The notes under the pieces were generated by a model. The model did no database searches. It was not told where the DNA came from and worked only from the letters and a program-made list of their open reading frames with translations. A program made the position numbers and the translations under genes. DNA of 64,000 bases, from the NCBI GenBank assembly GCA_001767435.1, contig MEKT01000147.1, forward strand, positions 25,281 to 89,280, written 5' to 3'. The stretch is from Acidobacteria bacterium RIFCSPLOWO2_02_FULL_65_29 (GTDB lineage: Bacteria > Acidobacteriota > Vicinamibacteria > Vicinamibacterales > CAVVIG01). Shown one piece after another: positions 165 to 52,700 of the stretch (position 1 is the first letter of the stretch; each line of letters starts with the position of its first letter).

Positions 165-180
165 GACGGCGAGACGGTGG

Positions 181-236
181 AATTTGAGGATTTGAAGATT
201 TGAGGATCTGAGGATCTTGCGAATCTGAGGATCTTG
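181..236 (+). repeat. Tandem octamer array, GAGGAT(T/C)T family, forward orientation
   Basis: Direct reading: aatttgagga tttgaaga tttgagga tctgagga tcttgcga atctgagga tcttg. Lower GC than surrounding sequence. Lies between the Trm112-like stop and the GT9 start. Confidence 0.85.
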
Positions 237-247
237 CGTCAGGGTTC

Positions 248-1441
248 ATGAGTCCCATCTCTACAAACCTATCTGCGGATGCTCAAATCGCTCCAATTCC
301 TCAAGTCGGTCCAAATTCTCAAGTCGCTCCAAATCCTCAAATCCTCACATTCTCAAATCCTCACATTCGGCTGCTCCTCATTCGTCTCCGCGAGATCGGC
401 GACGTCGTGTTCACCACACCGGCGGTTCGCGCGCTCGGACAACGGTTTCCCGACGCCCACATCAGCTACCTGGTCGAGCCAGCAGCCGCGCCGGTTGTGA
501 CGGGCCATCCGCACATCCATGACGTGATTGTCGCCCCGCGCGCGAAAGGCCTGCGCGCGCTGTGGACCGACATGACACTGGGACGGCGCCTGCACGCGAT
601 GGCCTACGACGTGGCCATTGATTTTCACGGCGGTCCGCGCGCGTCGCTCCTCACGTGGCTCAGCGGAGCCCCGGTGCGGATCGGTTATGACATCGCGGGA
701 CGGGCGTGGATGTACACGACACGCGTCGCGCGGCCGCGCGAGCTCAGGGCGCGACACTCGGTGGTGAACCAGTGGGATCTCCTCGCGCCGCTCGGCATCG
801 GCCCGCCCGATCCGGACACGTGCCCAGTCGAGATGCCGATCGACCCTGACACCGCGCGTCTGGTGGCCGATCGGCTGGCGCGGGCCGGGGCCGGTCCCGG
901 CGACGCGATCGTCGTCGTGCACGTCAGCGCCGGCAATCCCTTCCGGCGGTGGCCGATCGCCTCGTTCGCCGCGGTTGCCGCCGCGCTCGCGGCGAGCGAT
1001 GCCCGCCGCCGCGTCGTCATCACGTCGGGGCCTTCCGATCGCGACGCGGCCGCACGCGTGATGGCCGACGCCCGGACCCGGCTCGCAGCCGCTGAACAGG
1101 CACGCGTGCTCCAGTGCGGCGAATTCTCGTTGCCCGAGCTTCGAGCGCTGGTCGATCGCGCGGCGCTCTACATCGGCGGCGACAGCGGCCCCCTGCACAT
1201 TGCCGCGACGAGCCAGGTCGCCATCGTCGGGTTGTACGGCCCGACGCTGCCCGCGCGATCGGCGCCGTGGCGTGCGGCGCGCTGGCCTGCCGAGGCCGTC
1301 GAAACCTCCGGCCTCAGCTGCCGGCCGTGCAACCAGCGCACGTGCGAGCCCGGCGATTTCCGGTGCCTGACGCGCATCGAGCCGGCGCGCGTGGTCGAGG
1401 CGGCCAACCGCGCCCTGTCCCGATCCTCGCGACAGCACTGA
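248..1441 (+). CDS. Glycosyltransferase family 9 (ADP-heptose:LPS heptosyltransferase-like)
   Basis: ORF track 397 aa. Has the LLIRLREIGDVVFTTPAVRAL N-terminal core and the GGDSGPLHIAA C-terminal motif of GT9. The first ~40 codons translate the octamer repeat (QIAPIPQVGPNSQVAPNPQILTFSNPH). No other canonical in-frame start precedes the conserved core, so the true start is uncertain. Confidence 0.85.
   Translation: MSPISTNLSADAQIAPIPQVGPNSQVAPNPQILTFSNPHIRLLLIRLREIGDVVFTTPAVRALGQRFPDAHISYLVEPAAAPVVTGHPHIHDVIVAPRAKGLRALWTDMTLGRRLHAMAYDVAIDFHGGPRASLLTWLSGAPVRIGYDIAGRAWMYTTRVARPRELRARHSVVNQWDLLAPLGIGPPDPDTCPVEMPIDPDTARLVADRLARAGAGPGDAIVVVHVSAGNPFRRWPIASFAAVAAALAASDARRRVVITSGPSDRDAAARVMADARTRLAAAEQARVLQCGEFSLPELRALVDRAALYIGGDSGPLHIAATSQVAIVGLYGPTLPARSAPWRAARWPAEAVETSGLSCRPCNQRTCEPGDFRCLTRIEPARVVEAANRALSRSSRQH
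281..368 (+). repeat. Tandem 8-9 bp array, A(A/T)ATCCTC family (reverse complement of the 181-236 array)
   Basis: Reading: ctcaaatcg ctccaattc ctcaagtcg gtccaaatt ctcaagtcg ctccaaatc ctcaaatc ctcacatt ctcaaatc ctcacatt. Inverted relative to 181-236, so the two arms flank the ATG at 248. Confidence 0.85.
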
Positions 1442-1552: not shown

Positions 1553-1567
1553 TAATAATGTCCTGAC

Positions 1568-2764: not shown

Positions 2765-3756
2765 CCCTCCCGCCGCTGGACATGCAGCGGGCCCGCGAGC
2801 TCGCCGGGCGCATGACAGGCGTGCCGGTGCTCGTGGTCGGCGACGTGATGGTCGATCGCTTCATCGTCGGCAGGGTCTCGCGCATCTCGCCAGAAGCGCC
2901 AGTGCCCGTCGTCCGCTTCGCGCACGAGTACTCGCGCCTCGGCGGAGCGGCCAATGTCGCACACAACTTGGCGACGCTCGGCGCCCGCGTCTCGCTCGTC
3001 GGCCTCGTGGGGGTGGACGAGGCGGCGAAACGATTCGGCGCCTCTCTCGCACTGTCGAAAATCCCGAGCCTGGGACTCGTCGAAGACGCGAGCCGGCCGA
3101 CCGTCGAGAAGGTCCGCGTCGTCACCGAGCGCAACCAGCAGGTCGCGCGTATCGATTACGAGGAAGACGTCGACGTCTCGCCCGATGTCGAGCTGAAGCT
3201 CGTCGATCGCATCGAGAACCTCGGCGCCCAGGCCAAAGTGGTCCTCGTGTCGGACTACCTGAAGGGCGTCGTCACGGGCGGCGTCATGCGCGCGCTGCTC
3301 GCGCTGAAATCCGCGTTTGGCGCCCCTCTCCTCATCGATCCGAAAATTCCCCATCTCGAGTGTTACGCCGGCGCCACGCTCGTCACGCCAAACAATCACG
3401 AGACCGAGACGGCCACCGGCCGGCGGATCCGCACCGACGAGGAGGCGCGAACGGCGGCGCTCGACTTCAGAACGCGCGCGCAGTGCGAGGCGGTGCTCAT
3501 CACCCGCGGCGAGCATGGCATGTGGCTGTCGAGCCGCGAGGCCGAAGGCGCGATCCCTGCCGTCGCCCGCGAGGTCTCCGACGTCACCGGGGCCGGCGAT
3601 ACCGTGGTGGCGACGCTGGCGCTGGCGCTGGCGGCCGGCGGCACCCTGGTCGAAGCCGCCGTGCTCGCCAACCATGCCGCCGGCATCGTCGTCGGCAAGT
3701 TTGGGCCGTCGGCGACGACGGCTGAAGAGATCCTCGCATCGCTGCCCTCTCGGTGA
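2761..3756 (+). CDS. hldA: D-glycero-beta-D-manno-heptose-7-phosphate kinase (RfaE/HldE domain I type, kinase only)
   Basis: 331 aa PfkB-type sugar kinase. Motifs GGAANVAHNLATLG, VTPNNHE and DVTGAGDTVVATLALALAAG. Overlaps the upstream stop by 4 nt. Neighbours are a heptosyltransferase, and gmhA occurs elsewhere in the window. Confidence 0.8.
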   Translation: MTLPPLDMQRARELAGRMTGVPVLVVGDVMVDRFIVGRVSRISPEAPVPVVRFAHEYSRLGGAANVAHNLATLGARVSLVGLVGVDEAAKRFGASLALSKIPSLGLVEDASRPTVEKVRVVTERNQQVARIDYEEDVDVSPDVELKLVDRIENLGAQAKVVLVSDYLKGVVTGGVMRALLALKSAFGAPLLIDPKIPHLECYAGATLVTPNNHETETATGRRIRTDEEARTAALDFRTRAQCEAVLITRGEHGMWLSSREAEGAIPAVAREVSDVTGAGDTVVATLALALAAGGTLVEAAVLANHAAGIVVGKFGPSATTAEEILASLPSR

Positions 3757-4169
3757 TCCGGGCGCTCATCTTCCTCGGGCTGTTCTCGGCCGCGATGGTG
3801 GGCGCGATGGTCCGGTTCAACGAGGCGCTCGTCCTCGACGATTCCAAGCGAGCCGAGCATCGAACGCTCTGGGGCGTTCTCTACGTTGGCCTCTGGATCG
3901 GTGTGAGCTACGCCCTCTGGGACGTGATTCGCCACGAGCGAGCGCTGACGACCGCCGATTGGGCGGCCCTGGCTCTGGCGCCGGTAGGCTGGCTGACCTT
4001 CAACGCGTTCTGGCTGGCCGCATGGGGCGCAATCGAAGAGCGAAACGCCCAGCGCAGGGGCGCCGAACCGCCCCCCCGCGCCGTGCTGATCAAGCGCCGT
4101 GGATGGCGGCTCACGATCGCCGGTCTCGCCATCGTGCTGGTGCTGGTCATCATCCTGGGCGCGACCTAG
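3753..4169 (+). CDS. Hypothetical membrane protein
   Basis: 138 aa with 3-4 hydrophobic helices. Start overlaps the hldA stop (GTGA), suggesting translational coupling. No recognisable family. Confidence 0.45.
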   Translation: MIRALIFLGLFSAAMVGAMVRFNEALVLDDSKRAEHRTLWGVLYVGLWIGVSYALWDVIRHERALTTADWAALALAPVGWLTFNAFWLAAWGAIEERNAQRRGAEPPPRAVLIKRRGWRLTIAGLAIVLVLVIILGAT

Positions 4170-4184
4170 CCAGTCAGTGGCCCA

Positions 4185-5807
4185 CTAGTGTCTGAAATGC
4201 CGCCGCCCGGTGAAGACCATCGCGAGGCCGTGCTCGTCGGCGGCGGCGATCACCTCGGCGTCCCGCACCGATCCACCCGGCTGCACGACGGCTGTGGCGC
4301 CAGCGGCGGCCACCGCGTCGAGGCCGTCGCGAAACGGGAAGAACGCGTCCGACGCCGCGACCGATCCGTCGAGCGATCGCCCGGCGGCTTTCGCCTTCAT
4401 GACGGCCACGTTCACCGCGTCCACACGACTCATCTGACCGGCGCCGATCGCGAGCGTACGCGTCGCGTCCGCGAAGATCACCGTGTTGGATTTCACGTGC
4501 GCCGAGATCCGCCAGGCAAAGCGCAGCGCCTCCCATTCCTCGAGCGTGGGCTGTCGCTCGGTGACCACCCGCACACCCGCTGGCCGTGAACCCTCGGTCC
4601 ACGCACTCCGAGCCTCGACCACCCGGTCGCGCTCCTGGACGAGCATTCCGGCCAGTGTCGAACGCAGCTCCTGGCCGGCGCGGCCACGCGCATCGGTCGC
4701 GAGCGTCGCGAAATCGGCCGTCACCACGCGCATGTTCGCCTTCCGAGCCAGCACGGGCTTGGCCGCCTCGTCGACCGATGGCGCGAGGATCGCCTCGATG
4801 AACGTGGAGGTCACCGCCTCGGCGGTCGCGACGTCGACGGCCCGGTTGACGGCCACGACGCCGCCAAACGCCGCGAGGCTGTCGGCCTCGCGTGCGCGCA
4901 CGTAGGCGTCAGCGGCGGACCGACCGGTGGCGGCACCGCACGGGTTCGTGTGCTTGACGACGACAGCAGCCGGCTCGGAGAACTCGAGCGTGATTCGCGC
5001 GGCCGCGTCGAGGTCGATCAGGTTCGTGTACGACAGCTCCTTGCCTTGCACCACCTCCCATGGCCTGAACGTCTCGAGAAACCCCTCGTAGAGTGCCGCC
5101 TTCTGGTGCGGGTTCTCGCCGTAGCGGAGGTCGCGCTGCTTCGTCAGGCGGAATGACAGGCCCGACGGCAGCGGCGCCTCGCCCTCCTTGGGGCTCGGCG
5201 CGATCTGACCGTTCTCGACGACACAATCCCTGAGCTTCGAGGCAATGTCCACGTCGTACTTCCCGGTGTGCTCGATGGCCTCCAGGGCCAGAGAGAAGCG
5301 AAAGTCGAGCGTCGCGCCCCCCTCGCGATCGAGCTCGATCAGCAGATCGGCGTAGCGACGCGGATCGACGACGACGAGCACATCGCGAAAGTTCTTGGCC
5401 GCCGCGCGGACCATGCTCGGACCGCCGATGTCGATCTGCTCGACCAGGTCGTCGAACGTCACGCCGGGCTTCCTCGCCGTCTCCGCGAACGGATACAGGT
5501 TGACGATGACGACGTCGATGAGGCCGATGCCGTGCGCCGCGGCCGCCGCGAGGTCGTCGGGATGGTCGCGCCGCGCCAGAATCCCGCCGTGGATCCTCGG
5601 GTGGAGGGTCTTCACCCGGCCGTCCATCATTTCCGGGAAACCGGTGACGCTCGACACAGTGGTCACGGCCAGGCCGGCCTCGGCCAGCGCGCGCGCCGTG
5701 CCCCCGGTCGACACCAGCTCGAAGCCACGGGCGGCGAGGTCGCGACCGAGGGCGGCGAGACCGGTCTTGTCGGAGACGCTCAGAAGGGCTCTTGGCATAA
5801 GGGACAA
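4185..5807 (-). CDS. purH: Bifunctional AICAR transformylase / IMP cyclohydrolase
   Basis: Translation ...[38 protein letters not shown]... through ...[10 protein letters not shown] is a full-length PurH signature. The ORF-track start at 5807 is TTG. The ATG at 5798 (MPRALL) is an equally plausible start. Confidence 0.95.
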
Positions 5808-5859
5808 AGTTCAGTATTATGACTGATGACGCCGGGCGGGCCTGGCGCCGTAAGGGAAA

Positions 5860-5887
5860 GGCCGCACAGTCTGCGGCCTTTTTTTTT
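5860..5887 (+). terminator. Intrinsic-terminator-like hairpin with a T9 tract (orphan)
   Basis: ggccgca-cagtc-tgcggcc stem-loop followed by nine T (5879-5887). It lies in the divergent purH/cspA spacer with no upstream plus-strand gene to terminate. Confidence 0.5.
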
Positions 5888-5888
5888 G

Positions 5889-5919
5889 CCCCGGCGGATG
5901 GACCGCCCGGGGTTGGTTT
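5889..5919. other. Second GC hairpin in the purH-cspA spacer
   Basis: ccccggcgg-atgga-ccgcccgggg followed by ttggttt. On the minus strand it reads ccccgggcggtccatCCGCCGGGGCA. Confidence 0.4.
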
Positions 5920-5965
5920 ACTGACGCGAGCGAGACGCCCGCGTCACAGCAAGTAGGGAAGAACG

Positions 5966-6169
5966 ATGCGCATCACAGGCAAGGTCAAGTGGTTCAACAA
6001 CGCGAAGGGGTACGGGTTCATCGAGCGTGACGGAGGCAGTGACGTCTTCGTGCACTACTCGGCGATTCAGGGCGACGGATTCCGGTCGCTCGAGGAAGGA
6101 CAGGCGGTCGAGTTCGAAATCGTTGACGGCCCGAAAGGCCCGCAGGCCGGCAACGTCACCAAAATCTAA
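5966..6169 (+). CDS. cspA: Cold-shock protein, CspA family
   Basis: 67 aa, [64 protein letters not shown], with RNP1 (KGYGFI) and RNP2 (VFVHY) motifs. Confidence 0.95.
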
Positions 6170-6186
6170 CTCAGCATCCTACCGAG

Positions 6187-6211
6187 CCGGGCGCCCTCAA
6201 TGGGTGCCCGG
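6187..6211. terminator. Shared hairpin between convergent cspA and the 6270-6860 gene
   Basis: ccgggcgccc-tcaat-gggtgcccgg, a 10-bp stem with one mismatch. It is flanked by ttcaaaaac on plus and gttttt on minus, so it is not a classic U-tract terminator. Confidence 0.4.
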
Positions 6212-6229
6212 TTCAAAAACAGCCGTCAG

Positions 6230-6256
6230 CCCTTTGCCCTTTGCCCTTTGCCTTTC
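6230..6256 (+). repeat. Heptamer array CCCTTTG x3 (+1 degenerate)
   Basis: Direct reading: ccctttg ccctttg ccctttg cctttc. Confidence 0.7.
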
Positions 6257-6269
6257 TTCCTTCGACCCT

Positions 6270-6860
6270 CTAGCCCTCTTCCCCGCCGCCCTTGGTGGCC
6301 CGCGCCGTGAAATTGATTTTTCCGTCCTTCACCGCGACCCGGAACGCCACCTCGCTGTGGCCCTCTGAGGTCAACTTCTTCACTTGCGTCTTCACGAGGT
6401 CGGCGAACTTGTGGAAGGGCACGGCCTCCTCGCCAATCTCGCGCCGGGCTTCGACGAGCGAGTTGTACAAGTCGTGCAGCTTGCCCATTTCCTTCAGCGG
6501 ATCCTTGAACGCGGCCACGTGCATGACCTTGTCGTCGGGCCGCTTCGCGGCGGCCTGATCCTTCGGTTTCTGGGCAAACGGGCCGGTCGCCCGCCCTTCC
6601 TCGCGCGCGCGCAGGCCCTTGTCCCACAAGTCGATGAACGCCTGGTACCGCGACTGCAGCGAGCTGAAGCGGAAACGATCGCCGTAGTTCTGGATGTAGG
6701 CGCGGTCGTACTGCTTGACCATGGCCTCGACGCGGCTGCGGGTTTCCCACGGCGGCTTGGGCAGCCGGCCGGCGAAAAACATGTTGTACTCGGCCTCGAG
6801 CTGCTTGATCGCCGCCTCGAGCCGCTGCATGTCCCGTTCGGTTTCTCTGATAGGAGGCAC
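6270..6860 (-). CDS. Conserved hypothetical protein
   Basis: 196 aa, MPPIRETERDMQRLEAAIKQLEAEYNMFFAGRLPKPPWETRSRVEAMVKQYDRAY... Protein-like composition and co-directional with the nuo operon tail. I cannot place the family with confidence. Confidence 0.6.
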   Translation of the reverse strand: MPPIRETERDMQRLEAAIKQLEAEYNMFFAGRLPKPPWETRSRVEAMVKQYDRAYIQNYGDRFRFSSLQSRYQAFIDLWDKGLRAREEGRATGPFAQKPKDQAAAKRPDDKVMHVAAFKDPLKEMGKLHDLYNSLVEARREIGEEAVPFHKFADLVKTQVKKLTSEGHSEVAFRVAVKDGKINFTARATKGGGEEG

Positions 6861-6875
6861 GGTAGGGCCCTTAGC

Positions 6876-7289
6876 TCACCGCGGAAGCAGAAACCACACC
6901 AGCGGGAGCCACAACTCCCGGGCGTACGGCACTGGACGATCGTCGATCAGCACTTCAGTCTCGTCCGACGGCCCGACAATCTGAAACAGATCCCGTAGTG
7001 TCGCCGCCTCGCTCGACCAGAACCTGGCGCGGTACCGGCGGTTCACGCCCGATCCCGTCTCACGGAATTCCGCCGACCCGCGGGCCAGCGCCAGCGCGCG
7101 ATCGAACTCGGGCACCTCGAGCGCTGGAAACACCAGCGTAATCGAGAAGGGCCGCGGCCGCGCCCCGAACAGCGCCTCGTGCAGGTCCGGATCGATCGCC
7201 GCCAACTCCTCGTCGGTCGGCTGCTCGGGCAAATCCGCGTACGGCCAGAACCGCTCCAACGGCCGATATTTTGGAGGATCCTGGGCCAT
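6876..7289 (-). CDS. Hypothetical protein
   Basis: The ORF track 6876..7601 is trimmed to the internal ATG (MAQDPPKYRPLERFWPYADL...). The upstream 104 codons are translated octamer repeat (SSNPQILKSSNPQILK) plus the nuoN 3' region. Confidence 0.55.
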   Translation of the reverse strand: MAQDPPKYRPLERFWPYADLPEQPTDEELAAIDPDLHEALFGARPRPFSITLVFPALEVPEFDRALALARGSAEFRETGSGVNRRYRARFWSSEAATLRDLFQIVGPSDETEVLIDDRPVPYARELWLPLVWFLLPR

Positions 7290-7310
7290 CAAGGCCCCAA
7301 TGATATTGCA

Positions 7311-7406
7311 GAATTTGAGGATTTGAGGATTTGAGGATTTGAGGATTTGAGGATTTGAGGAATGGAGGATTTGAGGAATGGAGGAATGGAGGATTTGAGG
7401 AATGGA
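7311..7406 (+). repeat. Tandem octamer array GAGGATTT / GAGGAATG, about 12 units
   Basis: Direct reading: gaatttgagg atttgagg atttgagg atttgagg atttgagg aatggagg atttgagg aatggagg aatggagg atttgagg aatggagg atttgg. Spacer between the nuoN stop and the next gene. Confidence 0.95.
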
Positions 7407-7494
7407 GGATTTGGCGAGGCGAGAAGTTCCACAAGCGGCCTGAGCACCCGTGGGCTGGCCTCGGACAGGACCCGCGCCGGTTGTGAAACCGGCT

Positions 7495-8914
7495 CTAGAA
7501 AATCGTGCTGATCGACGCGGCGGCCCAGTCGAGGACGCGAGCGGGCAGTAGGCCAAGATAGAGCACGGCGAGCGCCGACGCCACCAGTGCCGCGCCCGCA
7601 ATCGCCGGCACCGCCGGGGCGTCTGATGACCGACCCGCCGGCGTCATGTACATCATCACCACGACCCGGAGATAGAAGAAGACCGCGACCACGCTCGTCA
7701 GCACGCCCACGATGGCTAGAGTGGTCTCGCCCGCCTTCACGGCGGCGCTGAACACGTACCATTTGGCGACGAAGCCGCCGAACGGCGGGAACCCACCGAG
7801 CGACAGGAGGAACATCGTCATCAACGCAGCCAGGGCGGGACGCGCGGTCCACAGTCCGGCGTAGTCGGACATCTGATCGAAGGGCCGCTCGGCCGTCTCG
7901 AGCAGCGCGATCACGCCGAAGGCGCCGAGGTTGGTCACCGCGTACGTGAGCAGGTAGAAGAGCATCGCGCCCTTGCCGAGGTCGTTGGCGGACACGAGCG
8001 CGACGAGCAGGTACCCGGCATGGGCGATGCTCGAGTACGCGAGCATGCGCTTGACGTTCGTCTGCGCGATGCCCACGACGGCTCCGCCCACCATCGTCGC
8101 CAACGCAATGGTCCACACGAGCGGACGCCAGTAGGGATGGAGCGGCTCGAATGTCGACAGAAACACGCGCGCGAACGCGGCAAACGCGGCGGCCTTCACG
8201 CCGGTCGACATGAACGCGGTGACCGCGGTCGGCGCACCCTCGTACGCATCGGGCGTCCACATATGAAACGGAATGGCCGACACCTTGAACGCGAAGCCGA
8301 CCAGCAGCAGTCCCACCGCGACGAGCTGCAGCGGCGCGGGCGACATCGCCTGGCCGGCCATGAGCGTGCCGATCCGGTCAAGCCGCGTGGTGCCGGTCAG
8401 ACCGTACGTGAAGGCGATCCCGTACAGAAAGAAGGCGCTGGAGAACGCACCGAGAATGAAGTACTTGAGCGCGCCTTCGACCGCGGCCGGCGAGTCGCGC
8501 CGAATGCCGGTCAACACGTACACGGCCAGCGACAGGACCTCGAGCGCCAGGAAGATCAGCAGCAGGTCGGTGGCCGTCGCCATCAGCATCATGCCGGCCA
8601 GGGCAAAGAGCATGAGCGCGTAGTACTCGCCACGCGGCAGGCCCAGGCGTTCGATGCCCGGCGCCGAAAGGGCCAGCGAGAGGATACCGACGACCACGAG
8701 GACGAGTGTGATGAACAGACCGAAGTTGTCGGCAACGACCAGGCTGAAGCTCGTCGCGTTGTGGTTCCACAGTCCCAGCGACGCCGCGGCGGCGCCCGCC
8801 AGACCAATCGCGCCGAGCGGACCGATGGGCATTCGCTCGCCAGGCGCGCGAAGCGCTTCGGCCACCATCGCCGCGACGCCCGCGGCGGCCACGCAGGCCA
8901 TGGGGACGATGGCA

Positions 8915-8931
<17 letters not shown>
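7495..8931 (-). CDS. nuoN: NADH-quinone oxidoreductase subunit N
   Basis: 478 aa polytopic antiporter-like subunit, last in the nuo gene order. Overlaps the nuoM stop by 17 nt. Confidence 0.9.
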
Positions 8932-10447
<1,516 letters not shown>

Positions 10448-10457
10448 CGAAGCCTCA

Positions 10458-12506: not shown

Positions 12507-12552
12507 CTGACCACAGGCAACCACGAAGGCACGAAGACACGATGTGGTGTGA
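12507..12552 (-). repeat. nuoK-nuoL spacer with CACGAAG repeats
   Basis: Plus strand reads ccacgaaggcacgaagacacgatg. Same word family as the other nuo intercistronic spacers. Confidence 0.6.
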
Positions 12553-12855
12553 TCACCATTTCAGCATCGTGAACGAATCCGGGTTGAGCGACTCTCGATG
12601 GCGGAAGAGGGCGATGACGATCGCCAGGCCGACCGCCGCTTCGGCGGCAGCCACGGTGATCACGAAGAACACGATGATCTGGCCGTCGACCTCTCCGAGC
12701 GCGCGGCCGAACGCCACAAAGGTCAGGTTCACGGCGTTCAGCATGATCTCGATCGACAGGAGGATCGTGATGAGGTTTCGGCGAACGAACACACCCGTGG
12801 CGCCGATCGAAAAGAGCAGCGCCGACAGCACGAGGTAGTCGGTGAGCGTCGGCAT
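12553..12855 (-). CDS. nuoK: NADH-quinone oxidoreductase subunit K
   Basis: 100 aa, three TM helices, …[16 protein letters not shown]… signature. Confidence 0.92.
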
Positions 12856-12856
12856 G

Positions 12857-13375: not shown

Positions 13376-13380
13376 ACAGC

Positions 13381-13408: not shown

Positions 13409-13424
13409 GTCTCCAGGAAAGGCG

Positions 13425-15843: not shown

Positions 15844-15850
15844 CACGGGG

Positions 15851-15948
15851 CCACGAAAACACGAAGACACGAAGAAGACCACATGGATCCCTTTCGTGCA
15901 CACGAAGAACACCCTTCGGATCTTTTTCGTGCTTTCGTGATTTCGTGG
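15851..15948. repeat. Inverted heptamer arrays (CACGAAR / YTTCGTG) in the nuoE-nuoF spacer
   Basis: Arm 1 is ccacgaaaacacgaagacacgaagaag (15851-15877). A central mini-palindrome ttcgtgcacacgaa follows. Arm 2 is tctttttcgtgctttcgtgatttcgtgg (15921-15948). The arms are imperfect reverse complements. Confidence 0.85.
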
Positions 15949-15955
15949 CTACCTT

Positions 15956-19494: not shown

Positions 19495-19521
19495 CGCAGC
19501 CTGGCTCCTGAAGTTGACCGT

Positions 19522-19562
19522 CCACAGTCGACAGTTGACGGCGCTGTGGACTGTCGACTGTG
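19522..19562. repeat. Palindromic hairpin of the ACAGTCGAC/TTGAC word family (nuoA-nuoB spacer)
   Basis: ccacagtcgacagt (19522-19535) is the reverse complement of actgtcgactgtg (19550-19562). Same word family as the 22064-22145 hairpin. Confidence 0.8.
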
Positions 19563-19571
19563 AACTGTTGA

Positions 19572-19937
19572 CTATGCATGGTCGCTGCCCCAGTCCAGCA
19601 CGCCCTTGCGCCAGACGTAGGCGTAGCCGGCCGCGAGCAGCAGCATGAACAGCACCACCTGCGCGAAGCCGTTCCAGCCGAGATCGCGCAGCGCCATCGC
19701 CCAGGGATAGAGAAACGCCACCTCGATGTCGAAGAGGAGAAAGATCATCGCGACCAGATAGAACTTCACCGACTGGCGCTCGCGGGCGTTGCCGACCGGG
19801 GGCATGCCGCATTCGTAGGGCGCGGCTTTCTCAGGCGTCGGCTTGTGCGGCCCGAGGACGCTCGACAGCACGATCGACACGAGCGCGAAACCCGCGCCGA
19901 GGGCGATCATGATGAGGATGGAAAACCAGCCTTGCAT
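19572..19937 (-). CDS. nuoA: NADH-quinone oxidoreductase subunit A
   Basis: 121 aa. …[40 protein letters not shown]… signature. First gene of the operon. Confidence 0.93.
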
Positions 19938-37096: not shown

Positions 37097-37146
37097 CAGC
37101 TATCAGCTATCGGCGCTCAGCCCCGAGTCCCTAGTCCCTAGTCCCT
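37097..37146 (+). repeat. Two short heptamer arrays (CAGCTAT x2, AGTCCCT x3)
   Basis: cagctatcagctat at 37097-37110 and agtccct agtccct agtccct at 37126-37146, in the 56-nt spacer between two co-directional genes. Confidence 0.75.
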
Positions 37147-38734
37147 ACTCCAGTCGCACGTGAATCTCTGCCGCGTAGAGCATGGTGCGGTCGTTGTCGA
37201 TCGCGGCCCATTTCATGAGCGTCGCGACGCTCTTCTCCGTGCGTGCGCTGAACACCTGCCGGCCGTCGGCCACGATCGTGATCGGCTGTGCGAGATCGAA
37301 GGCATCGGGCGACACGAGCAGCGTGAACGAGGCGACGCCGCGCGTGGTCGCCCGCACCATGTTCCCCTCGCGGACCACGTCGACGCGGCCGGTTGGCCGG
37401 TCGCGCGCGAAAAGCGGCACGAGCCGCGTCAGGATCTCCGGCTTGTAGACGCCGGCCACGTCGAGCGGCTTGTTGTCGCGCGAGATCGAAAACGTGAGCC
37501 GCTCACCCGAATCGTAGATGCCGAGGAATTGCAAGAGATCGAGCTCGCCCGGCAGGCTTCGACCATTGATGGCCAGCACCCGGTCGCCGGGCTCGAGGCC
37601 GAGGACGTCGGCGTTGCTGCCTGGGATCACGGAGGTTAGGCGCATCCCGTTCGATCGAACGCCGAAGTTCAGCTCCGCGCCGGCCGCGAAATCGTTCAGA
37701 TCCGGGAGCGGCGCCGCGATGCGCCTCGGACCGAGCGCGTCGATGACCAGCCAATGCGCCCGCGTGCCAACGCCCTCTTCCGCCGACCACGTGAGAGTCG
37801 CCGGGTGGGAATCGCGCGGGTGGCCGGTGACAAACGCCTCGACGGTATCTTTCATCTGGGGCCACCAGGCCGTGTTGTGCCCGGCGTCGGGCTGCGGACG
37901 AAAGTCGACCGACACGCCGTTCTTCTCGAGATGCCGGACGTAGGGCTCGACGATCGACGCCGGATACAGCGGATCCTGGCCGCCGTTGATCACGAAGAAG
38001 GGCTTGTTGCGCAGGTTGTTCGGCAAGAGCGCCTCGCGCAGGCCGAGCGAGGGATTCTGCAGGATCATCATGAAGCCGTTCATCGGCAGGAAGCTCGCGT
38101 ACGGCGTCGTGTCGCGCATCGCAATGAAGTACGCGCCGGTGCCCCCGTCGGACACACCCGCCAGCACGACGCGGTTCTCATCGACGTTATAGGTCCGTCT
38201 CACCGTATCGAGAATCGCGCGCAGATTGCCGACCTGCACGTCGCCCCACCACGGGGCGTCGGCCCACGACTGCGGCAGCACGTAGATCTGGTCAACGTTC
38301 CCTGGGCCTGCCAGCGATCCGATCGATCCGTCTCCGCGGACGGCCGCGTTCGGACGGCCGATTCCGCCGTGCAGCTGCACGCGCACCTGGAACCTTTTCG
38401 CCGGGTCGTAGGTCGGCGGCACGTCCAGGGTGTATGGGAACTCGGCGTCACCCGTTTTTCGGCTGAGCCGGACGACACCTTTCGGCGCGTCAGGCGAGTA
38501 CGCACGGCCCTGCTTCAGACGCGCCAGCGCGGCGTCGAACGACACACCGGACGCGACGATCGCAGGAACGAGGTTCGCGGCCTCCTGCGGGCTCTTCGCA
38601 TCCCAGAACTGTTTGAACGCGGCGTCGACCGAGGGCCGCTGCGCCGACAGCAACGGCATCGACGCCAGAAGCGCGATAACGAGGACTAGCAACGCCACAC
38701 GTTCGCCACGGGCCGCTAGGAATCGTCGTGTCAT
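37145..38734 (-). CDS. Secreted alpha/beta-hydrolase-fold esterase/peptidase with C-terminal PDZ domain
   Basis: 529 aa. Signal-peptide-like N-terminus, nucleophile-elbow-like VLAGVSDGGTGAY, and PDZ-like …GLEPGDRVLAINGRSLPG…. Confidence 0.65.
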   Translation of the reverse strand: MTRRFLAARGERVALLVLVIALLASMPLLSAQRPSVDAAFKQFWDAKSPQEAANLVPAIVASGVSFDAALARLKQGRAYSPDAPKGVVRLSRKTGDAEFPYTLDVPPTYDPAKRFQVRVQLHGGIGRPNAAVRGDGSIGSLAGPGNVDQIYVLPQSWADAPWWGDVQVGNLRAILDTVRRTYNVDENRVVLAGVSDGGTGAYFIAMRDTTPYASFLPMNGFMMILQNPSLGLREALLPNNLRNKPFFVINGGQDPLYPASIVEPYVRHLEKNGVSVDFRPQPDAGHNTAWWPQMKDTVEAFVTGHPRDSHPATLTWSAEEGVGTRAHWLVIDALGPRRIAAPLPDLNDFAAGAELNFGVRSNGMRLTSVIPGSNADVLGLEPGDRVLAINGRSLPGELDLLQFLGIYDSGERLTFSISRDNKPLDVAGVYKPEILTRLVPLFARDRPTGRVDVVREGNMVRATTRGVASFTLLVSPDAFDLAQPITIVADGRQVFSARTEKSVATLMKWAAIDNDRTMLYAAEIHVRLE

Positions 38735-41433: not shown

Positions 41434-43101
41434 ATGAAACCTGGAACACCGGCCGTGATTGCGTTGGTATGTGCCGCCGTTGTCGGCGCGACCGCCCAGG
41501 GCGCGGTGTACGACATCGTGATTCGCGGCGGCCATATCGTCGATGGGACGGGTAACCCCTGGTTCGCAGGCGACGTCGCGATCGCCGGCGGCCGCATCGC
41601 CGGCGTGGGCCGGCTGCCGAACGCAACCGCGCGGCGCATCATCGACGCCACCGGTCTCATCGTCGCTCCGGGATTCATCGATCTGCACACGCACTCGGAG
41701 ATGCCGCTCCTCGAGGACGGCACCGCGCAGAGCAAAGTACGCCAGGGCGTCACGATTGACGTGCTCGGCGAATCCACGTCGGCCGCGCCGCGCGATGGCT
41801 TGAAGGAGGAAGGGCCTCCTGGGATCATTCCGCAAGACTGGACGACCTTCACGGGATACTTCGATCGCCTGAAGCGCCGCGGGATCTCGATGAACGCGAT
41901 CTCGCACGTGGCGTCCGAGCAGGTGCGGCGGGTCGTGATGGGGTACGACGCGCGCCCGGCCGACGCGGCCCAGCTGGCGAAAATGAGGGCGCTGGTCGCG
42001 CGCTCGATGGAGGAAGGCGCGTGGGGGCTCGTGACCAGGTTCGAGAGCGGCGGCCCGGCGCATCCCGACGAGATTGTCGAGTTGGCGAAGGTCGCGGCGT
42101 CGTACGGCGGCAACTACACGTCACACATCGGCAGCGAAGGCTTCGAGCAGGAGAAGGAGCTGCGCTTCGCGATTCGAGTGGCCGAAGAGGCGAAGATCCC
42201 GGTGCACATCTTCCACTTGAAGATTCGGGCGAAAGACAACTGGGGCACGGTCGGCCAGTACCTCGACACGATCGAGGCGGCGCGCGCCAGGGGACTGGAC
42301 GTCACCGCCAACCAGTACCCGTACACGGCCATGAACCACGGCTGGAGCGCGTTTTTTCCCGTGTGGGCGCGCGAAGGCGGGCCCGCGGCGTTCGCCGCGC
42401 GCTTGAAGGATCCGGCCGTGCGCGCGAGGATCAAAACCGACAGGGACTTCATCACGTGGGCCAAGGAGCACGGCTGGTGGGAAGGCATCGTGATGGGCCG
42501 CGCCGGCAGCCCCGCGAACCGGAAGTACGAGGGGATGCGGCTGACCGAGATCGCGAAGGTGCGGGGCGACGCCGATCCCGCCGATACGTGCCTGACGCTC
42601 ATGGCCGAGGACGGCGGCCGCATCTCGGGCATGTTTCACGCGATGTCGGAGGAGGACGTGCGCGCCGTGATGCGGAAGCCGTGGGTGGCGATCGCCAGCG
42701 ATGGCTCGGCCATCAACCTCGAGGCGCAGGGCGTACCGCATCCCCGTAACTACTCGACCAACGTGCGCGCGCTGGGCTACTACGCGCGCGACCAGCGCGT
42801 GCTGACGCTCGAGGACGCCGTGCGGAAGATGTCGTCCCTGCCAGCGCAGATCCTGAACCTGCGCGACCGCGGTCAGGTGCGCGAGGGTTTCGCCGGCGAC
42901 CTGGCCGTGTTCGATGACCGAACGGTCGGTGAGACCAACTCGTTCGAGAAGACGAAGTCGTACGCCACCGGCATGAAGTACGTCCTGGTGAATGGCGTGC
43001 TCGTCGTCGACAAGGGCGAGCATACGGGCGCACGGCCCGGCAAGCCAATCCTCGGCCCCGGGTACAAGGCGCCGGCGGGGACGGGGGCGGTTAGTCGATA
43101 G
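41434..43101 (+). CDS. N-acyl-D-amino-acid deacylase (D-aminoacylase) family amidohydrolase
   Basis: 555 aa. Signal peptide, then YDIVIRGGHIVDGTGNPWFAGDVAIAGGRIAGVG and APGFIDLHTHSE metal-binding motifs. Confidence 0.85.
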   Translation: MKPGTPAVIALVCAAVVGATAQGAVYDIVIRGGHIVDGTGNPWFAGDVAIAGGRIAGVGRLPNATARRIIDATGLIVAPGFIDLHTHSEMPLLEDGTAQSKVRQGVTIDVLGESTSAAPRDGLKEEGPPGIIPQDWTTFTGYFDRLKRRGISMNAISHVASEQVRRVVMGYDARPADAAQLAKMRALVARSMEEGAWGLVTRFESGGPAHPDEIVELAKVAASYGGNYTSHIGSEGFEQEKELRFAIRVAEEAKIPVHIFHLKIRAKDNWGTVGQYLDTIEAARARGLDVTANQYPYTAMNHGWSAFFPVWAREGGPAAFAARLKDPAVRARIKTDRDFITWAKEHGWWEGIVMGRAGSPANRKYEGMRLTEIAKVRGDADPADTCLTLMAEDGGRISGMFHAMSEEDVRAVMRKPWVAIASDGSAINLEAQGVPHPRNYSTNVRALGYYARDQRVLTLEDAVRKMSSLPAQILNLRDRGQVREGFAGDLAVFDDRTVGETNSFEKTKSYATGMKYVLVNGVLVVDKGEHTGARPGKPILGPGYKAPAGTGAVSR

Positions 43102-43140
43102 TCGTTAGTCGATAGTCGTTAGTCGAGAGTCGCTAGTCGA
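43092..43140 (+). repeat. Tandem heptamer array TAGTCG(A/T) x7
   Basis: Reading: tagtcga tagtcgt tagtcga tagtcgt tagtcga gagtcgc tagtcga. Begins within the last codons of the D-aminoacylase gene and fills the gap to the convergent MFS gene. Confidence 0.95.
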
Positions 43141-44454: not shown

Positions 44455-44530
44455 TGTAGCCTCCGCCGTACACGAAACGCGGGGCATCGGCCAGAATCTC
44501 ACGGGCCAACGCCCCGCCCCCTGAACTCTC

Positions 44531-44575
44531 GAATCCTCAGATCCTCAGATTCTCAAATCCTCAAATCCTCACATT
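44531..44575 (+). repeat. Tandem octamer array (A/G)ATCCTCA family
   Basis: Reading: gaatcctca gatcctca gattctca aatcctca aatcctca cattc. Same family as 281-368, 7311-7406 (reverse complement) and 52637-52690. Confidence 0.9.
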
Positions 44576-44582
44576 CGCGTTT

Positions 44583-45760: not shown

Positions 45761-45800
45761 CCAACTTCTAACTCTTACTTCTTACTTCTCACTTCTTGAC
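45761..45800 (+). repeat. CTTACTT / CTTCT short-word array
   Basis: Reading: ccaacttctaactcttacttcttacttctcacttcttgac. Spans the spacer and the last codons of the downstream paralog. Confidence 0.6.
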
Positions 45801-52636: not shown

Positions 52637-52690
52637 CAAATCCTCAAGTCCTCACATCCTCAAATCCTCAAATCCTCAAATCCTCAAATC
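52637..52690 (+). repeat. Tandem octamer array AATCCTCA, about 7 units
   Basis: Reading: caaatcctca agtcctca catcctca aatcctca aatcctca aatcctca aatcc. Lies between convergent genes. Confidence 0.95.
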
Positions 52691-52700
52691 CGCGATCTAC

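What the first reader, a model, noticed from the sequence alone, without database searches (positions are those of the whole stretch)
7311..7406. GAGGATTT / AAATCCTC octamer microsatellites recur at five intergenic loci
Arrays of the same 8-bp word occur at five loci:
- 181-236 (GAGGATYT orientation)
- 281-368 (reverse orientation)
- 7311-7406 (about 12 units, GAGGATTT/GAGGAATG)
- 44531-44575
- 52637-52690

They are confined to spacers, are clearly less GC-rich than the genome, and contain SD-like GAGGA (or anti-SD-like UCCUC, depending on the transcript strand). At 181-368 the two orientations flank the ATG of the GT9 gene, so the mRNA could fold into a long imperfect stem around the start codon. 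ORF callers read through them and produce SNPQILKSS-type pseudo-peptides.

Possible roles include a structural, insulator or terminator function, a protein-binding array, or hyper-mutable spacer length. None of these can be decided from sequence alone.
Basis: seen in the sequence. Interest (0 to 1): 0.7.

Follow-up and report, generated by a model that had tools for sequence, protein, structure and literature searches.

The report
Hypervariable 8-base repeat arrays between genes
The GAGGATTT arrays are real, slippage-prone tandem repeats of a known but poorly understood bacterial class (7-8-base "long simple sequence repeats"). They fill much of this acidobacterium's intergenic DNA, change copy number between strains, and follow a strict orientation rule relative to neighbouring genes.

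Summary
Confirmed. GAGGATTT-type octamer arrays lie at 178-236, 281-368, 7309-7413, 44527-44578 and 52637-52693: 29 near-matches to a 16-mer against 0.16 expected.

They are not a special element. The window, from a Rifle-aquifer Vicinamibacteria-like acidobacterium, carries about 14 spacers with 7-8-nt arrays of at least 8 unrelated units. In the first 17 kb, arrays make up 44% of non-coding DNA.

Near-identical strains from other assemblies differ almost only by whole-unit indels in these arrays (-8, -16, -24, +16, -7, -27 bp; one array is absent altogether). So they are hypermutable by slippage and not assembly artefacts.

An SD/anti-SD role is not supported. Arrays sit far from start codons and occur in both orientations.

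A stronger regularity emerged:
- Arrays just after a stop codon are purine/G-rich on the sense strand (68 v 10; 33 v 9 in low-GC phyla).
- Arrays before a start codon tend to be pyrimidine-rich.
- Inverted pairs always read purine arm first (69 v 6) and fold into long hairpins.

The closest known elements are LSSRs, cyanobacterial STRR heptamers and Xanthomonas GGGAATC repeats, for which the same orientation rule has been published. This is a new member of a known kind, and its function is still unproven.

The parts
178..236 (+). Array A. GAGGATYT units, purine-rich on the sense strand, beginning about 13 nt after the Trm112-like gene's stop codon (163-165). It is the 5' arm of the A/B inverted pair.
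281..368 (-). Array B. It reads ARATCCTC on the + strand (pyrimidine-rich sense) and is degenerate, with an 18-bp (3n) superperiod. It abuts the conserved GT9 N-terminus (IRLLLIRLREIGDVV, about nt 362). It lies in frame with ATG 248, so it is either a 5' leader or a 39-aa N-terminal extension.
166..380 (+). Long imperfect hairpin formed by arrays A and B, enclosing ATG 248.
   Evidence: -77.6 kcal/mol, z -5.3
7309..7413 (+). Array C, the flagged locus, with about 12.6 units (GAGGATTT/GAGGAATG). Both neighbours are on the - strand, so the transcript reads (AAAUCCUC)n: no G over about 100 nt and predicted unpaired. It lies about 80 nt after the nuoN stop and ends about 21 nt before ATG 7289 of a conserved 137-aa gene, directly against a conserved TGcAATA(C/T)-type -10-like motif. 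Copy number differs between strains.
44527..44578 (-). Array D. The transcript (- strand) reads GAGGAUUU, starting 5-6 nt after the NHL-propeller gene's stop (44583-44585) and 72 nt before the MFS ATG (44454). A GC-rich hairpin follows it. One strain variant carries +16 bp (2 units).
52637..52693 (-). Array E, in a convergent spacer. It is purine-rich sense about 9 nt after the cytochrome c stop (52701-52703) and pyrimidine-rich sense about 8 nt after the + strand gene's stop (52627-52629). It is unstructured as RNA.
12522..12545 (+). CACGAAGA-family octamer array in the nuoK/nuoL spacer. Other members are at 13381-13402 (nuoH/J) and 14506-14529 (nuoF/H).
15846..15955 (-). nuoE/nuoF spacer. 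(CACGAAAN)3 follows the nuoE stop, then (UCUUCGUG)n precedes nuoF. This purine-first inverted pair folds into a hairpin.
   Evidence: -52.4 kcal/mol, z -7.35
19512..19576 (.). Inverted pair of ACTGTNR-family heptamer arrays. A second pair lies at 22058-22152, upstream of the Lhr helicase gene.
   Evidence: (z -6.7 and -3.3)
6222..6256 (-). AAAGGGC heptamer array (GCCCTTT on +), purine-rich sense 18 nt after the stop of the 186-aa gene, in the convergent spacer with the cold-shock gene. It is polymorphic by 7 bp.
37097..37151 (.). CAGCTAT and CCCTAGT heptamer arrays between two - strand genes. The sense strand reads ACUAGGG across the upstream gene's stop.
43090..43140 (+). TAGTCGW heptamer array (14-bp superunit) across the amidohydrolase stop codon, in a convergent spacer. 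It is entirely absent in a 99%-identical strain.
45764..45797 (-). AAGAAGT heptamer array (ACTTCTT on +), purine-rich sense at the stop of the upstream NHL paralogue.

Best explanation
The GAGGATTT arrays are one unit family among many 7-8-nt 'long simple sequence repeats' (STRR-like microsatellites) that populate the spacers of this Vicinamibacteria-like acidobacterium.

Shown:
- The arrays grow, shrink, appear and vanish by whole-unit steps on the timescale of strain divergence. This is the signature of replication slippage.
- Array centres are pure and array edges are degenerate.
- The arrays have no element termini.
- Orthologous spacers in relatives are short and array-free, or carry arrays of other units.

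Inferred:
- Units of 7-8 nt escape mismatch repair, which handles loops of up to about 4 nt (my own knowledge).
- Which arrays survive is filtered by what the transcript tolerates. A purine/G-rich, stop-codon-rich array is tolerated right after a stop codon. A pyrimidine-rich, G-poor array cannot fold on itself and offers no SD-like or start-codon decoys, so it is tolerated right before a start codon.
- When both occupy one spacer they form a purine-first inverted pair that folds into a long hairpin between cistrons, at convergent gene ends, or over a start codon (181-368). Such hairpins probably act as mRNA-stabilising, insulating or terminator-like structures whose stem length drifts by slippage.
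- Solitary arrays such as 7309-7413 are unstructured spacer or leader segments.
- The GAGGA/UCCUC content is incidental and does not amount to a Shine-Dalgarno system.
For: Class membership:
- TRF finds about 18 arrays of period 7-8 in about 14 spacers, with at least 8 unrelated units.
- In 1.08 Mb of related and unrelated loci, periods 7 and 8 dominate (70+74 and 67+142 arrays, against 12 or fewer for any other period). There are 150 distinct unit classes.
- In window 1-17289, arrays make up 44% of non-coding nt and occupy 8 of the 10 spacers of 40 nt or more (using the gene calls).

Slippage between 98.7-99.9%-identical strains. Every indel longer than 1 bp (only three 1-bp indels were seen) is a whole number of units inside an array:
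- -8, -24 and -16 bp in array C.
- -7 bp in the heptamer array at 6229.
- +16 bp in array D.
- Loss of the whole 43090 array.
- -27 bp in the in-frame 9-mer array of the cytochrome c signal peptide.

No conserved termini.

Turnover at orthologous spacers:
- The Trm112-GT9 spacer is 0-15 nt in relatives. L178 carries proto-units there.
- The nuoN spacer carries a similar array only in L113.
- The csp convergent spacer carries pairs with different heptamers in different relatives.

Orientation:
- Arrays after a stop are purine-rich on the sense strand in 68 cases against 10. With the array starting 4 nt or more past the stop it is 36 v 8, p = 2.5e-5.
- In low-GC phyla the count is 33 v 9.
- Arrays before a start are pyrimidine-rich in 47 cases against 27.
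- Inverted pairs are purine-first in 69 cases against 6, or 40 v 6 when collapsed to unit classes, p = 3e-7.
- All five window arrays fit the rule.

Folding:
- Pairs fold with z = -5.3, -7.35, -6.7 and -3.3.
- Solitary arrays are unpaired.

Literature:
- The same orientation rule and unit-number variation were reported for GGGAATC repeats (PMC4692102).
- Indels in 7-nt steps were reported for TAACTGA repeats (PMC4679880).
- STRR hairpins occur between hupS and hupL (PMC2670836).
Against: - Pure slippage does not explain why the same unit occurs at five loci in 64 kb and at many loci in some other genomes. It also does not explain why (GAGGATTT)3 is found in at least 5 phyla. No control octamer could be scanned.
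- Unit families cluster locally (CACGAAGA only in the nuo operon), which hints at some copying between nearby spacers.
- The selective reasons proposed for the orientation rule are inferences. Stop-triplet content, purine content and G>C could not be separated.
- Gene boundaries in the statistics come from crude GC3 and long-ORF calls. Start codons are especially unreliable.
- Many set-2 loci are orthologous and therefore not independent.
- Copy-number differences come from short-read assemblies.
- No transcript data exist, and the simple scans found no canonical promoter or terminator at array C.
Confidence: 0.62

Rival explanations
1. The arrays are dedicated cis-regulatory elements read by a trans-acting factor: the 16S anti-SD tail, S1, a cold-shock protein, CsrA (GGA every 8 nt) or a DNA-binding protein. 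Unit number would set the strength of binding.
For: - The same unit recurs at five loci and in many genomes and phyla.
- There is a strict orientation rule relative to genes.
- GAGGAAUG and GAGGAUGU variants resemble CsrA-type GGA motifs (my own knowledge).
- MacGregor proposed S1, Csp or CsrA for TAACTGA repeats (PMC4679880).
Against: - At least 8 unrelated unit families in the window, and 150 classes in about 1 Mb, obey the same rule. One factor per unit is implausible, and a single factor cannot read them all.
- Array presence and unit type are not conserved at orthologous spacers.
- Copy number drifts freely between strains.
- GAGGA-sense arrays are not at SD distance from start codons.
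Confidence: 0.13
2. Pyrimidine-sense solitary arrays such as 7309-7413 are Rho-loading (rut) sites. They would end the upstream operon (nuo) just before the next gene's own promoter. Purine-first polarity would exist because a C-rich arm transcribed first would trigger premature Rho termination.
For: - Sense-strand array C has 0 G and about 40% C over 103 nt.
- It is predicted to be completely unpaired.
- It lies downstream of the last nuo gene.
- It is followed at once by a conserved -10-like motif shared by relatives of the 137-aa gene.
- C-rich arms always come second in pairs.
Against: - The same orientation rule was reported in Nostoc (PMC4692102), and cyanobacteria lack Rho (my own knowledge).
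- Most arrays are 25-60 nt, shorter than a full rut site.
- Pyrimidine-sense arrays also lie inside operon spacers (nuoH/J, nuoK/L).
- No Rho dependence can be tested here.
Confidence: 0.12
3. The arrays are contingency loci for phase variation. In particular, the 281-368 array lies between ATG 248 and the GT9 (heptosyltransferase-like) body, so 8-bp slippage would switch this cell-envelope gene on and off.
For: - There is no ATG, GTG or TTG in frame between 248 and 407, and the conserved N-terminus starts at about nt 362.
- The Pfam GT9 domain begins at residue 110 of the 397-aa form.
- The neighbouring genes are envelope genes (GT9, O-antigen-ligase-like Wzy_C).
- Arrays demonstrably slip.
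Against: - Array B is degenerate, with an 18-bp (3n) superperiod.
- It is identical in three assemblies.
- The orthologue in L121 also lacks a canonical start next to RILLVRL, which suggests a non-canonical (ATT/CTG) start. That would put array B in the leader.
- Most arrays flank housekeeping genes such as nuo, MFS, cytochrome c and GroEL.
Confidence: 0.08
4. The arrays are laid down by a dedicated mechanism. One option is a MITE-like mobile element. Another is templated 3'-end extension at DNA breaks by a reverse-transcriptase- or telomerase-like enzyme followed by end joining, which would give head-to-head purine-first pairs.
For: - The purine/G-rich strand always points 5'->3' towards the centre of a pair, as in head-to-head telomere fusions.
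- The same unit occurs at dispersed loci and in distant phyla.
Against: - There are no conserved termini, inverted terminal sequences or target duplications.
- Hundreds of different units would each need a template.
- Proto-units are visible in an orthologous short spacer (L178), and an 'empty' site looks like ordinary sequence.
- No RT or transposase gene was seen next to the arrays in the window.
Confidence: 0.04

Closest known systems
Long simple sequence repeats with 5-11-nt units (LSSR; Mrazek et al. 2007, as summarised in PMC4679880)
   Same: Tandem head-to-tail copies of a 7-8-nt unit, many loci per genome, concentrated in non-coding DNA, patchy phylogenetic distribution, with slippage as the proposed generator.
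   Different: The unit is an octamer not described in the papers I could search. The host is a Vicinamibacteria-like acidobacterium. Arrays occupy nearly half of the local intergenic DNA.
Cyanobacterial STRR heptamers (for example CCCCAGT; hupS-hupL hairpins, PMC2670836)
   Same: Short tandem units in spacers, including operon-internal spacers. Inverted arrays form hairpins. Several unit families coexist in one genome. Function is unknown, with proposals of transcript stability or translational coupling. Some window heptamers (ACTGTTG, CCCTAGT) even resemble STRR3 and STRR1 (my own recollection of those units).
   Different: 8-nt unit, a 67% GC non-cyanobacterial genome, and no heterocyst context.
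GGGAATC / GGGGAYT repeats of Xanthomonas and Nostoc (Rehm et al. 2015, PMC4692102)
   Same: Intergenic, and variable in unit number between close relatives. The orientation rule is identical: the G-rich strand is the coding strand within 50 bp after a stop, and the non-coding strand within 50 bp before a start. Inverted copies can form stem-loops.
   Different: Those units carry G3-4 tracts and form G-quadruplexes, with a preference for four units. GAGGATTT has only GG, and many co-resident units have no G runs. The orientation rule therefore cannot depend on G4 formation.
TAACTGA heptamer direct repeats of Beggiatoaceae, Cyanobacteria and Bacteroidetes (MacGregor 2015, PMC4679880)
   Same: One short unit found as tandem arrays in distant phyla. 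Indels come in unit steps between strains. Distributions are strain-specific, and other heptamer arrays lie in the same spacers.
   Different: In the Beggiatoaceae genome those repeats sit in forward orientation within a few nt of start codons, replacing the SD. GAGGATTT arrays show no such single placement.
REP/BIME/REPIN and MITE-type intergenic hairpin elements
   Same: Intergenic, hairpin-forming, with fixed polarity of the doublet. They are thought to affect mRNA stability and termination.
   Different: Those are unit-length elements with conserved sequence and ends, mobilised by RAYT or other transposases. The arrays here are tandem microsatellites without conserved ends.

Membership tests
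LSSR (tandem repeats of 5-11-nt units) | Head-to-tail copies of a 5-11-nt unit, longer than chance allows | tested here: met
   TRF period 8, 5.5-12.6 copies. 29 v 0.16 expected 16-mer matches.
LSSR (tandem repeats of 5-11-nt units) | Many loci per genome, concentrated in non-coding DNA | tested here: met
   About 18 arrays in about 14 spacers of 64 kb. 96% of array nt lie in the 7% of 1-17289 that is non-coding.
LSSR (tandem repeats of 5-11-nt units) | Unit-number polymorphism between close strains (slippage) | tested here: met
   Whole-unit indels of -8, -16, -24, +16, -7 and -27 bp; they are the only indels longer than 1 bp in 98.7-99.9%-identical assemblies.
Cyanobacterial STRR | Heptanucleotide unit | tested here: not met
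   The flagged unit is 8 nt. Heptamer arrays do coexist in the window (6229, 19544, 22064, 37122, 43092, 45764).
Cyanobacterial STRR | Occurs in (filamentous) cyanobacterial genomes | tested here: not met
   The flanking protein is 99% identical to one from 'Acidobacteria bacterium RIFCSPLOWO2_02_FULL_65_29'. GC is 66.7%.
Cyanobacterial STRR | Inverted arrays form hairpins in operon spacers | tested here: met
   nuoE/F spacer z = -7.35. Trm112/GT9 spacer z = -5.3.
G-quadruplex-forming heptamer repeats (GGGAATC type) | At least four consecutive G-tracts of 3 or more G | tested here: not met
   The unit GAGGATTT contains only GG. Two-tetrad G4 formation was not evaluated.
G-quadruplex-forming heptamer repeats (GGGAATC type) | The G-rich strand is the coding strand just after a stop and the non-coding strand just before a start | tested here: met
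   68 v 10 and 33 v 9 after stops. 47 v 27 before starts. All five window arrays fit.
Shine-Dalgarno / ribosome-binding element | Purine-rich motif on the sense strand about 5-10 nt upstream of the start codon | tested here: not met
   GAGGA-sense arrays A and D follow stop codons, and D is 72 nt from the next ATG, which has its own GGAGG. Arrays next to starts (B, C) read UCCUC in the sense strand.
Phase-variation contingency locus | The repeat lies within an ORF or between promoter elements, so that unit changes switch expression | tested here: inconclusive
   Array B is in frame between ATG 248 and the GT9 body, but it is degenerate, has a 3n superperiod and is invariant in 3 assemblies. 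A non-canonical start is possible. Array C abuts a -10-like motif.
Phase-variation contingency locus | Association with surface or host-interaction genes | tested here: not met
   Neighbours include nuo genes, MFS, cytochrome c, GroEL, csp and Lhr.
MITE / REP-REPIN mobile elements | Conserved element ends or terminal inverted repeats, and target-site duplication | tested here: not met
   Flanks of 47 arrays share nothing beyond degenerate edge units.
MITE / REP-REPIN mobile elements | A cognate transposase or RAYT in the genome | not testable with these tools
   Only 64 kb of the genome is available. None was seen in it.
CRISPR array | Repeats of about 23-50 nt separated by unique spacers of similar length | tested here: not met
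   Units are 8 nt and directly abutting.
Rho utilisation (rut) site | About 70 nt or more of C-rich, G-poor, unstructured RNA in an untranslated stretch | tested here: met
   Array C sense strand has 42 C, 0 G, 31 A and 30 U over 103 nt (complement of the counts) and is fully unpaired in the MFE fold. This is a sequence criterion only.
Rho utilisation (rut) site | Rho-dependent 3' ends downstream | not testable with these tools
   No transcript data are available.
Known structured RNA families (Rfam 15) | Match at the gathering threshold | tested here: not met
   0 matches in the whole window.

The most novel reading that the evidence does not exclude
The 7-8-nt arrays of Acidobacteriota, Bacteroidota, Cyanobacteria, Planctomycetota and Xanthomonas form one phylum-spanning class of orientation-constrained intergenic modules. 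A purine arm follows the stop codon, and a pyrimidine arm precedes the start codon. When both are present they give a purine-first hairpin whose pyrimidine-rich 3' arm makes a weak RNA:DNA hybrid. Slippage continually retunes stem or leader length. The arrays would then act as a genome-wide, heritable but fast-mutating rheostat for translational coupling, read-through and mRNA stability, including inside core operons such as nuo.
Probability: 0.2. Interest if true: 0.75.

Novelty: new member of a known kind. Interest (0 to 1): 0.52.

Why it matters
Short tandem 7-8-nt arrays (STRR and LSSR) have been known since about 1990 without an accepted function. This case contributes four things:
- It shows them in an abundant soil and aquifer lineage (Vicinamibacteria), where they occupy nearly half of the local intergenic DNA, including spacers inside the nuo operon.
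- It documents their turnover in natural populations.
- It shows that the stop/start orientation rule, previously tied to G-quadruplex-forming units, holds for many non-G4 units and across phyla. It also shows a strict purine-first polarity of inverted pairs.
- That regularity constrains mechanisms. It argues for selection acting on the transcript rather than on duplex DNA, and it gives a concrete design for reporter experiments (array orientation × copy number × position).

Practical consequences:
- These arrays mislead ORF callers, producing SNPQILKSS-type peptides and wrong start codons.
- They break short-read assemblies.
- They could serve as strain-typing markers for uncultured Acidobacteriota.

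Tried and rejected
- SD/anti-SD function: rejected on position and orientation.
- MITE or mobile element: no conserved ends.
- CRISPR: units abut one another, with no spacers.
- Known RNA family: Rfam gathering search of the whole window found nothing.
- Canonical sigma-70 promoter or intrinsic terminator at array C: the simple scan found none nearby.
- Assembly artefact: the arrays are reproduced in four independent assembly sources.
- Is GAGGATTT itself special across phyla? I intended to compare it with control octamers. The question stays open.
- Exact-protein look-ups for the NHL protein and cytochrome c found nothing, because of differing start calls or the polymorphic signal-peptide array. 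Neighbouring proteins worked instead.
- Stop-codon content versus purine content as the cause of the after-stop bias: the two could not be separated.
- Rho avoidance as a universal cause: weakened, because the same rule is reported for Nostoc and cyanobacteria lack Rho (own knowledge).
- Literature searches for octamer repeats or acidobacterial intergenic repeats found nothing specific.
Full report
**1. Observation**

The five loci are real. TRF reports period-8 arrays at these positions:
- 182-232: 6.2 copies.
- 282-363: 9.5 copies, with an 18-bp superperiod at 282-340.
- 7313-7413: 12.6 copies, 87% matches.
- 44528-44571: 5.5 copies.
- 52637-52691: 6.9 copies.

The statistics are clear. A 16-mer of two units with up to 3 mismatches hits 29 times against 0.16 expected, and every hit is in these loci. 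The exact octamer occurs 20 times against 1.04 expected. The arrays are 39-44% GC in a 66.7% GC window.

**2. Organism and gene context**

A flanking 137-aa protein is 99% identical to one from 'Acidobacteria bacterium RIFCSPLOWO2_02_FULL_65_29'. Identical or near-identical contigs come from Rifle-type JGI, ENA, Logan and ANAN16 assemblies. GTDB hits with the same repeat are mostly Vicinamibacterales and Luteitalea.

Neighbouring genes:
- Array A: Trm112-like gene upstream, then array A.
- Array B: then a GT9 glycosyltransferase.
- Array C: nuoN, then array C, then a conserved 137-aa gene.
- Array D: NHL propeller gene, then array D, then an MFS transporter.
- Array E: a Yip1-like membrane protein, then array E, facing a cytochrome c gene. 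GroEL lies next door.

**3. GAGGATTT is only one family among many**

TRF and direct reading show other 7-8-nt arrays in the window's spacers:
- CACGAAGA/TTTCGTGN in four nuo-operon spacers (nuoE/F, F/H, H/J, K/L).
- ACTGTNR inverted pairs at 19.5 and 22.1 kb.
- GCCCTTT (6229), CAGCTAT and CCCTAGT (37.1 kb), TAGTCGW (43.1 kb), ACTTCTT (45.8 kb).
- An 18-mer array at 1420-1560.
- An in-frame 9-mer array in the cytochrome c signal peptide.

Independent gene calls exist for 1-17289. There, 7% of the DNA is non-coding, 96% of array bases lie in it, arrays make up 44% of it, and 8 of the 10 spacers of 40 nt or more carry an array.

**4. Hypermutability is shown, not just suspected**

Contigs from other samples that are 98.7-99.9% identical to the window differ by SNPs plus indels. 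Every indel longer than 1 bp (only three 1-bp indels were seen) is a whole number of units inside an array:
- Array C: -8 bp (L103), and -24 and -16 bp (L104).
- The GCCCTTT heptamer array: -7 bp (L103, L104).
- Array D: +16 bp in L189.
- The cytochrome c 9-mer array: -27 bp in L191, giving a 149-aa rather than a 158-aa product.
- The TAGTCGW array at 43090-43140: absent in L189, whose 'empty' site reads CTATCGCCTCGCC.

Array centres are pure and edges are degenerate. Flanks share no termini. This is microsatellite behaviour and does not fit a mobile element.

**5. Turnover at orthologous spacers**

80 soil relatives (77-89% aa identity of the 137-aa protein) give the picture below.
- nuoN-to-137-aa spacer. 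It carries an AAATCCTC-type array only in L113. In L112, L114, L163, L172 and L178 it is short and array-free, and in L108 and L109 it holds a different REP-like hairpin repeat.
- Where the 137-aa gene is instead divergent from another gene, the spacer holds (TGCAGRAT)n...(ATYCTGCA)m inverted pairs. These merge into a conserved TGcAATACTAT or TGGTATGCTA -10-like motif. Array C in the window abuts the same motif (AAATTCTGCAATATCAT).
- Trm112-GT9 spacer. It is 0-15 nt in relatives, with an ATG or GTG directly before R(V/I)L(I/L)VRL. L178 shows three proto-units there (AAGAATGT AAGGATGT GAGAATCC). The window has about 200 nt.
- csp convergent spacer. Different relatives carry hairpin pairs built from different heptamers: GAGGGCT, ATGGCTG, AGGGCAG, ATGGCGA.

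Arrays therefore arise in place, and their units turn over. The GAGGATTT family is expanded in this species: 5 loci in 64 kb, against 1 in 321 kb of relatives.

**6. Wider distribution**

(GAGGATTT)3 occurs in at least 100 stretches of GTDB species genomes, where the scan saturated. Hits include Vicinamibacterales, Luteitalea and other Acidobacteriota, Saprospiraceae, Chitinophagaceae, Bacteroidales, Pirellulaceae, Ignavibacteria, Lyngbya and some Pseudomonadota. Several genomes have many loci each.

Those loci also contain many other 7-8-nt arrays. In 1.08 Mb of loci, periods 7 and 8 dominate overwhelmingly, and 150 unit classes occur. With that much unit diversity, cross-phylum recurrence of one octamer may be chance. 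I could not run control octamers (one search had no power).

**7. Orientation rule**

The SD/anti-SD idea predicts GAGGA on the sense strand near start codons. The opposite is found.

In the window:
- Arrays A and D read GAGGAUUU and begin about 13 and 5-6 nt after a stop codon.
- Arrays B and C read AAAUCCUC and end at or about 21 nt before a start.
- Array E is purine-sense for the cytochrome c stop.

The other families behave the same way. In the nuoE/F spacer, (CACGAAAN)3 follows the stop and (UCUUCGUG)n precedes the start. The same holds for the nuoF/H, nuoH/J, 37.1-kb and 45.8-kb arrays.

Across high-GC loci, 7-8-nt arrays starting within 25 nt of a stop are purine-rich on the sense strand in 68 cases against 10. 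Taking only arrays that start 4 nt or more past the stop, which excludes arrays that supply the stop themselves, gives 36 v 8 (p = 2.5e-5). In low-GC loci, mostly Bacteroidota, the count is 33 v 9. Before predicted starts, the sense strand is pyrimidine-rich in 47 cases against 27, with noisy start calls.

One consequence follows. Inverted pairs always read 5'-(purine/G-rich)n-spacer-(pyrimidine/C-rich)m-3': 43 v 6 in the first set and 26 v 0 in the second. Collapsed to unit classes this is 40 v 6, p = 3e-7. A pair is its own reverse complement, so this polarity is intrinsic to the pair.

Rehm et al. reported exactly this placement for GGGAATC and GGGGAYT repeats and discussed it in terms of G-quadruplexes (PMC4692102). 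Here it holds for units that cannot form G4 structures.

**8. Structure**

Pairs fold into long hairpins:
- 166-380: -77.6 kcal/mol, z -5.3.
- nuoE/F spacer: z -7.35.
- 19.5 kb pair: z -6.7.
- 22.1 kb pair: z -3.3.

Solitary arrays are unpaired. Array C is unpaired in the fold, and array E has -0.8 kcal/mol in the pyrimidine sense. Rfam has no match in the window. Simple promoter and terminator scans find nothing canonical near array C.

**9. Explanation**

Shown: these are slippage-driven LSSR/STRR-type arrays with fast birth, death and length change.

Inferred: 7-8-nt loops escape mismatch repair (own knowledge). Selection on the transcript then filters orientation.
- After a stop codon, a purine-rich array is tolerated. 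It is rich in T-purine-purine stop triplets, although one search shows this is not separable from purine content.
- Before a start codon, a G-poor array is tolerated. It cannot self-pair and offers no SD or start-codon decoys.
- When both are present, the hairpin may stabilise or insulate transcripts, couple translation of adjacent cistrons, or terminate transcription. One physical rationale for the polarity is that a pyrimidine-rich 3' arm forms a weak RNA:DNA hybrid that a hairpin can displace, much like a U-tract (own knowledge; untested).

Rho loading on long pyrimidine-sense arrays such as array C remains a plausible local role. It cannot be the general cause, because the rule also holds in Rho-less cyanobacteria (own knowledge for the absence of Rho).

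**10. What remains unexplained**

- Why the same unit appears at several loci in one genome.
- Why unit families cluster locally (CACGAAGA only in the nuo operon).
- Whether GAGGATTT is favoured across phyla.
- Whether 281-368 is translated. ATG 248 is the only canonical in-frame start upstream of the conserved N-terminus, but the L121 orthologue also lacks a canonical start.

**11. Caveats**

- Gene boundaries in the statistics come from GC3 or long-ORF heuristics.
- Many set-2 loci are orthologous and so not independent.
- Set 1 was selected for containing the unit, though not for orientation.
- Copy-number differences come from short-read assemblies. They do co-vary with flanking SNPs and recur across sources.

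**12. Verdict**

The feature is real, is correctly located and is a new member of a known kind. The SD-centred interpretation is not supported. The hypermutability and hairpin suggestions are supported. The generalised orientation and polarity rule is the most useful new lead.

Noticed in passing
window 1420-1560: An 18-bp tandem array (GAACCTCGCGACGGCACC-like, 6.7 copies, with 36- and 54-bp superperiods) starts at the GT9 stop codon (1439-1441). It fills the whole 126-nt spacer up to the Wzy_C gene start (1568).
   Followed up: partly
window 53087-53146 (cytochrome c gene 52701-53177, - strand): An in-frame 9-bp array (TGTCAAGAA on +) encodes a repeated LTF/LTC motif in the signal peptide. 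A 99.3%-identical strain (L191) has 27 bp (3 units) fewer, giving a 149-aa rather than a 158-aa protein. This may tune signal-peptide length.
   Followed up: partly
window 12507-15955 (nuo operon spacers): CACGAAGA-family octamer arrays occur in four spacers of the nuoD-N operon and nowhere else in the window. Unit families appear to cluster locally, which suggests copying between nearby spacers.
   Followed up: partly
window 7262-7289 (- strand) and L108-L187 upstream of the 137-aa homologues: A conserved motif (TTCTGCAATACTATG, GAAATGGTATGCTAT or TGTTATGCTA; window AAATTCTGCAATATCAT) lies 10-25 nt upstream of the start of a 137-aa protein family. The family has no Pfam domain and 5,813 homologues. 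The motif looks like an extended -10 promoter with a very short leader. In relatives the adjacent arrays are built from the sequence just upstream of it.
   Followed up: partly
window 248-407; L121 about 11,700-11,760: The GT9 gene has no canonical start codon next to its conserved N-terminus (IRLLLIRLREIGDVV). The options are ATG 248, which is 39 codons upstream through the repeat, or ATT 362 / CTG. The L121 orthologue has the same problem. Automatic callers chose GTG 407, which truncates the conserved first strand.
   Followed up: partly
window 43090-43140 v L189 1541-1548: Presence/absence polymorphism of a whole heptamer array between 99%-identical strains from the same sample. The empty site is ordinary sequence with a weak proto-repeat (TATCGCC TCGCCGC).
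   Followed up: yes
L108, L109 (about 130-60 nt upstream of the 137-aa homologue): At the orthologous nuoN spacer these relatives carry two copies of a 36-bp unit containing the palindrome GTCCGGCTTCAGCCGGAC (REP-like), instead of an octamer array. Different repeat types fill the same spacer in different lineages.
   Followed up: no
L052 1132-1197 (Saprospirales MAG): One of the co-resident heptamer arrays is (CCCTAAA)9, identical to the plant-type telomere repeat TTTAGGG. It is probably coincidental, but it shows how many G/T-rich units occur in these arrays.
   Followed up: no
window 28173-34636 (- strand): Two adjacent paralogous Ser/Thr protein kinase genes with C-terminal PD40/WD40-like beta-propellers (1069 and 966 aa). 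Also two adjacent NHL-propeller paralogues at 44583-47105.
   Followed up: no
window 44455-44526 (- strand): Between array D and the MFS start lies a strong GC-rich hairpin (GGGGCGGGGCGUUGGCC...GGCCGAUGCCCCGC) followed by GUUUCGUGU, and then a GGAGG SD. This conventional terminator-like element sits beside the repeat.
   Followed up: no
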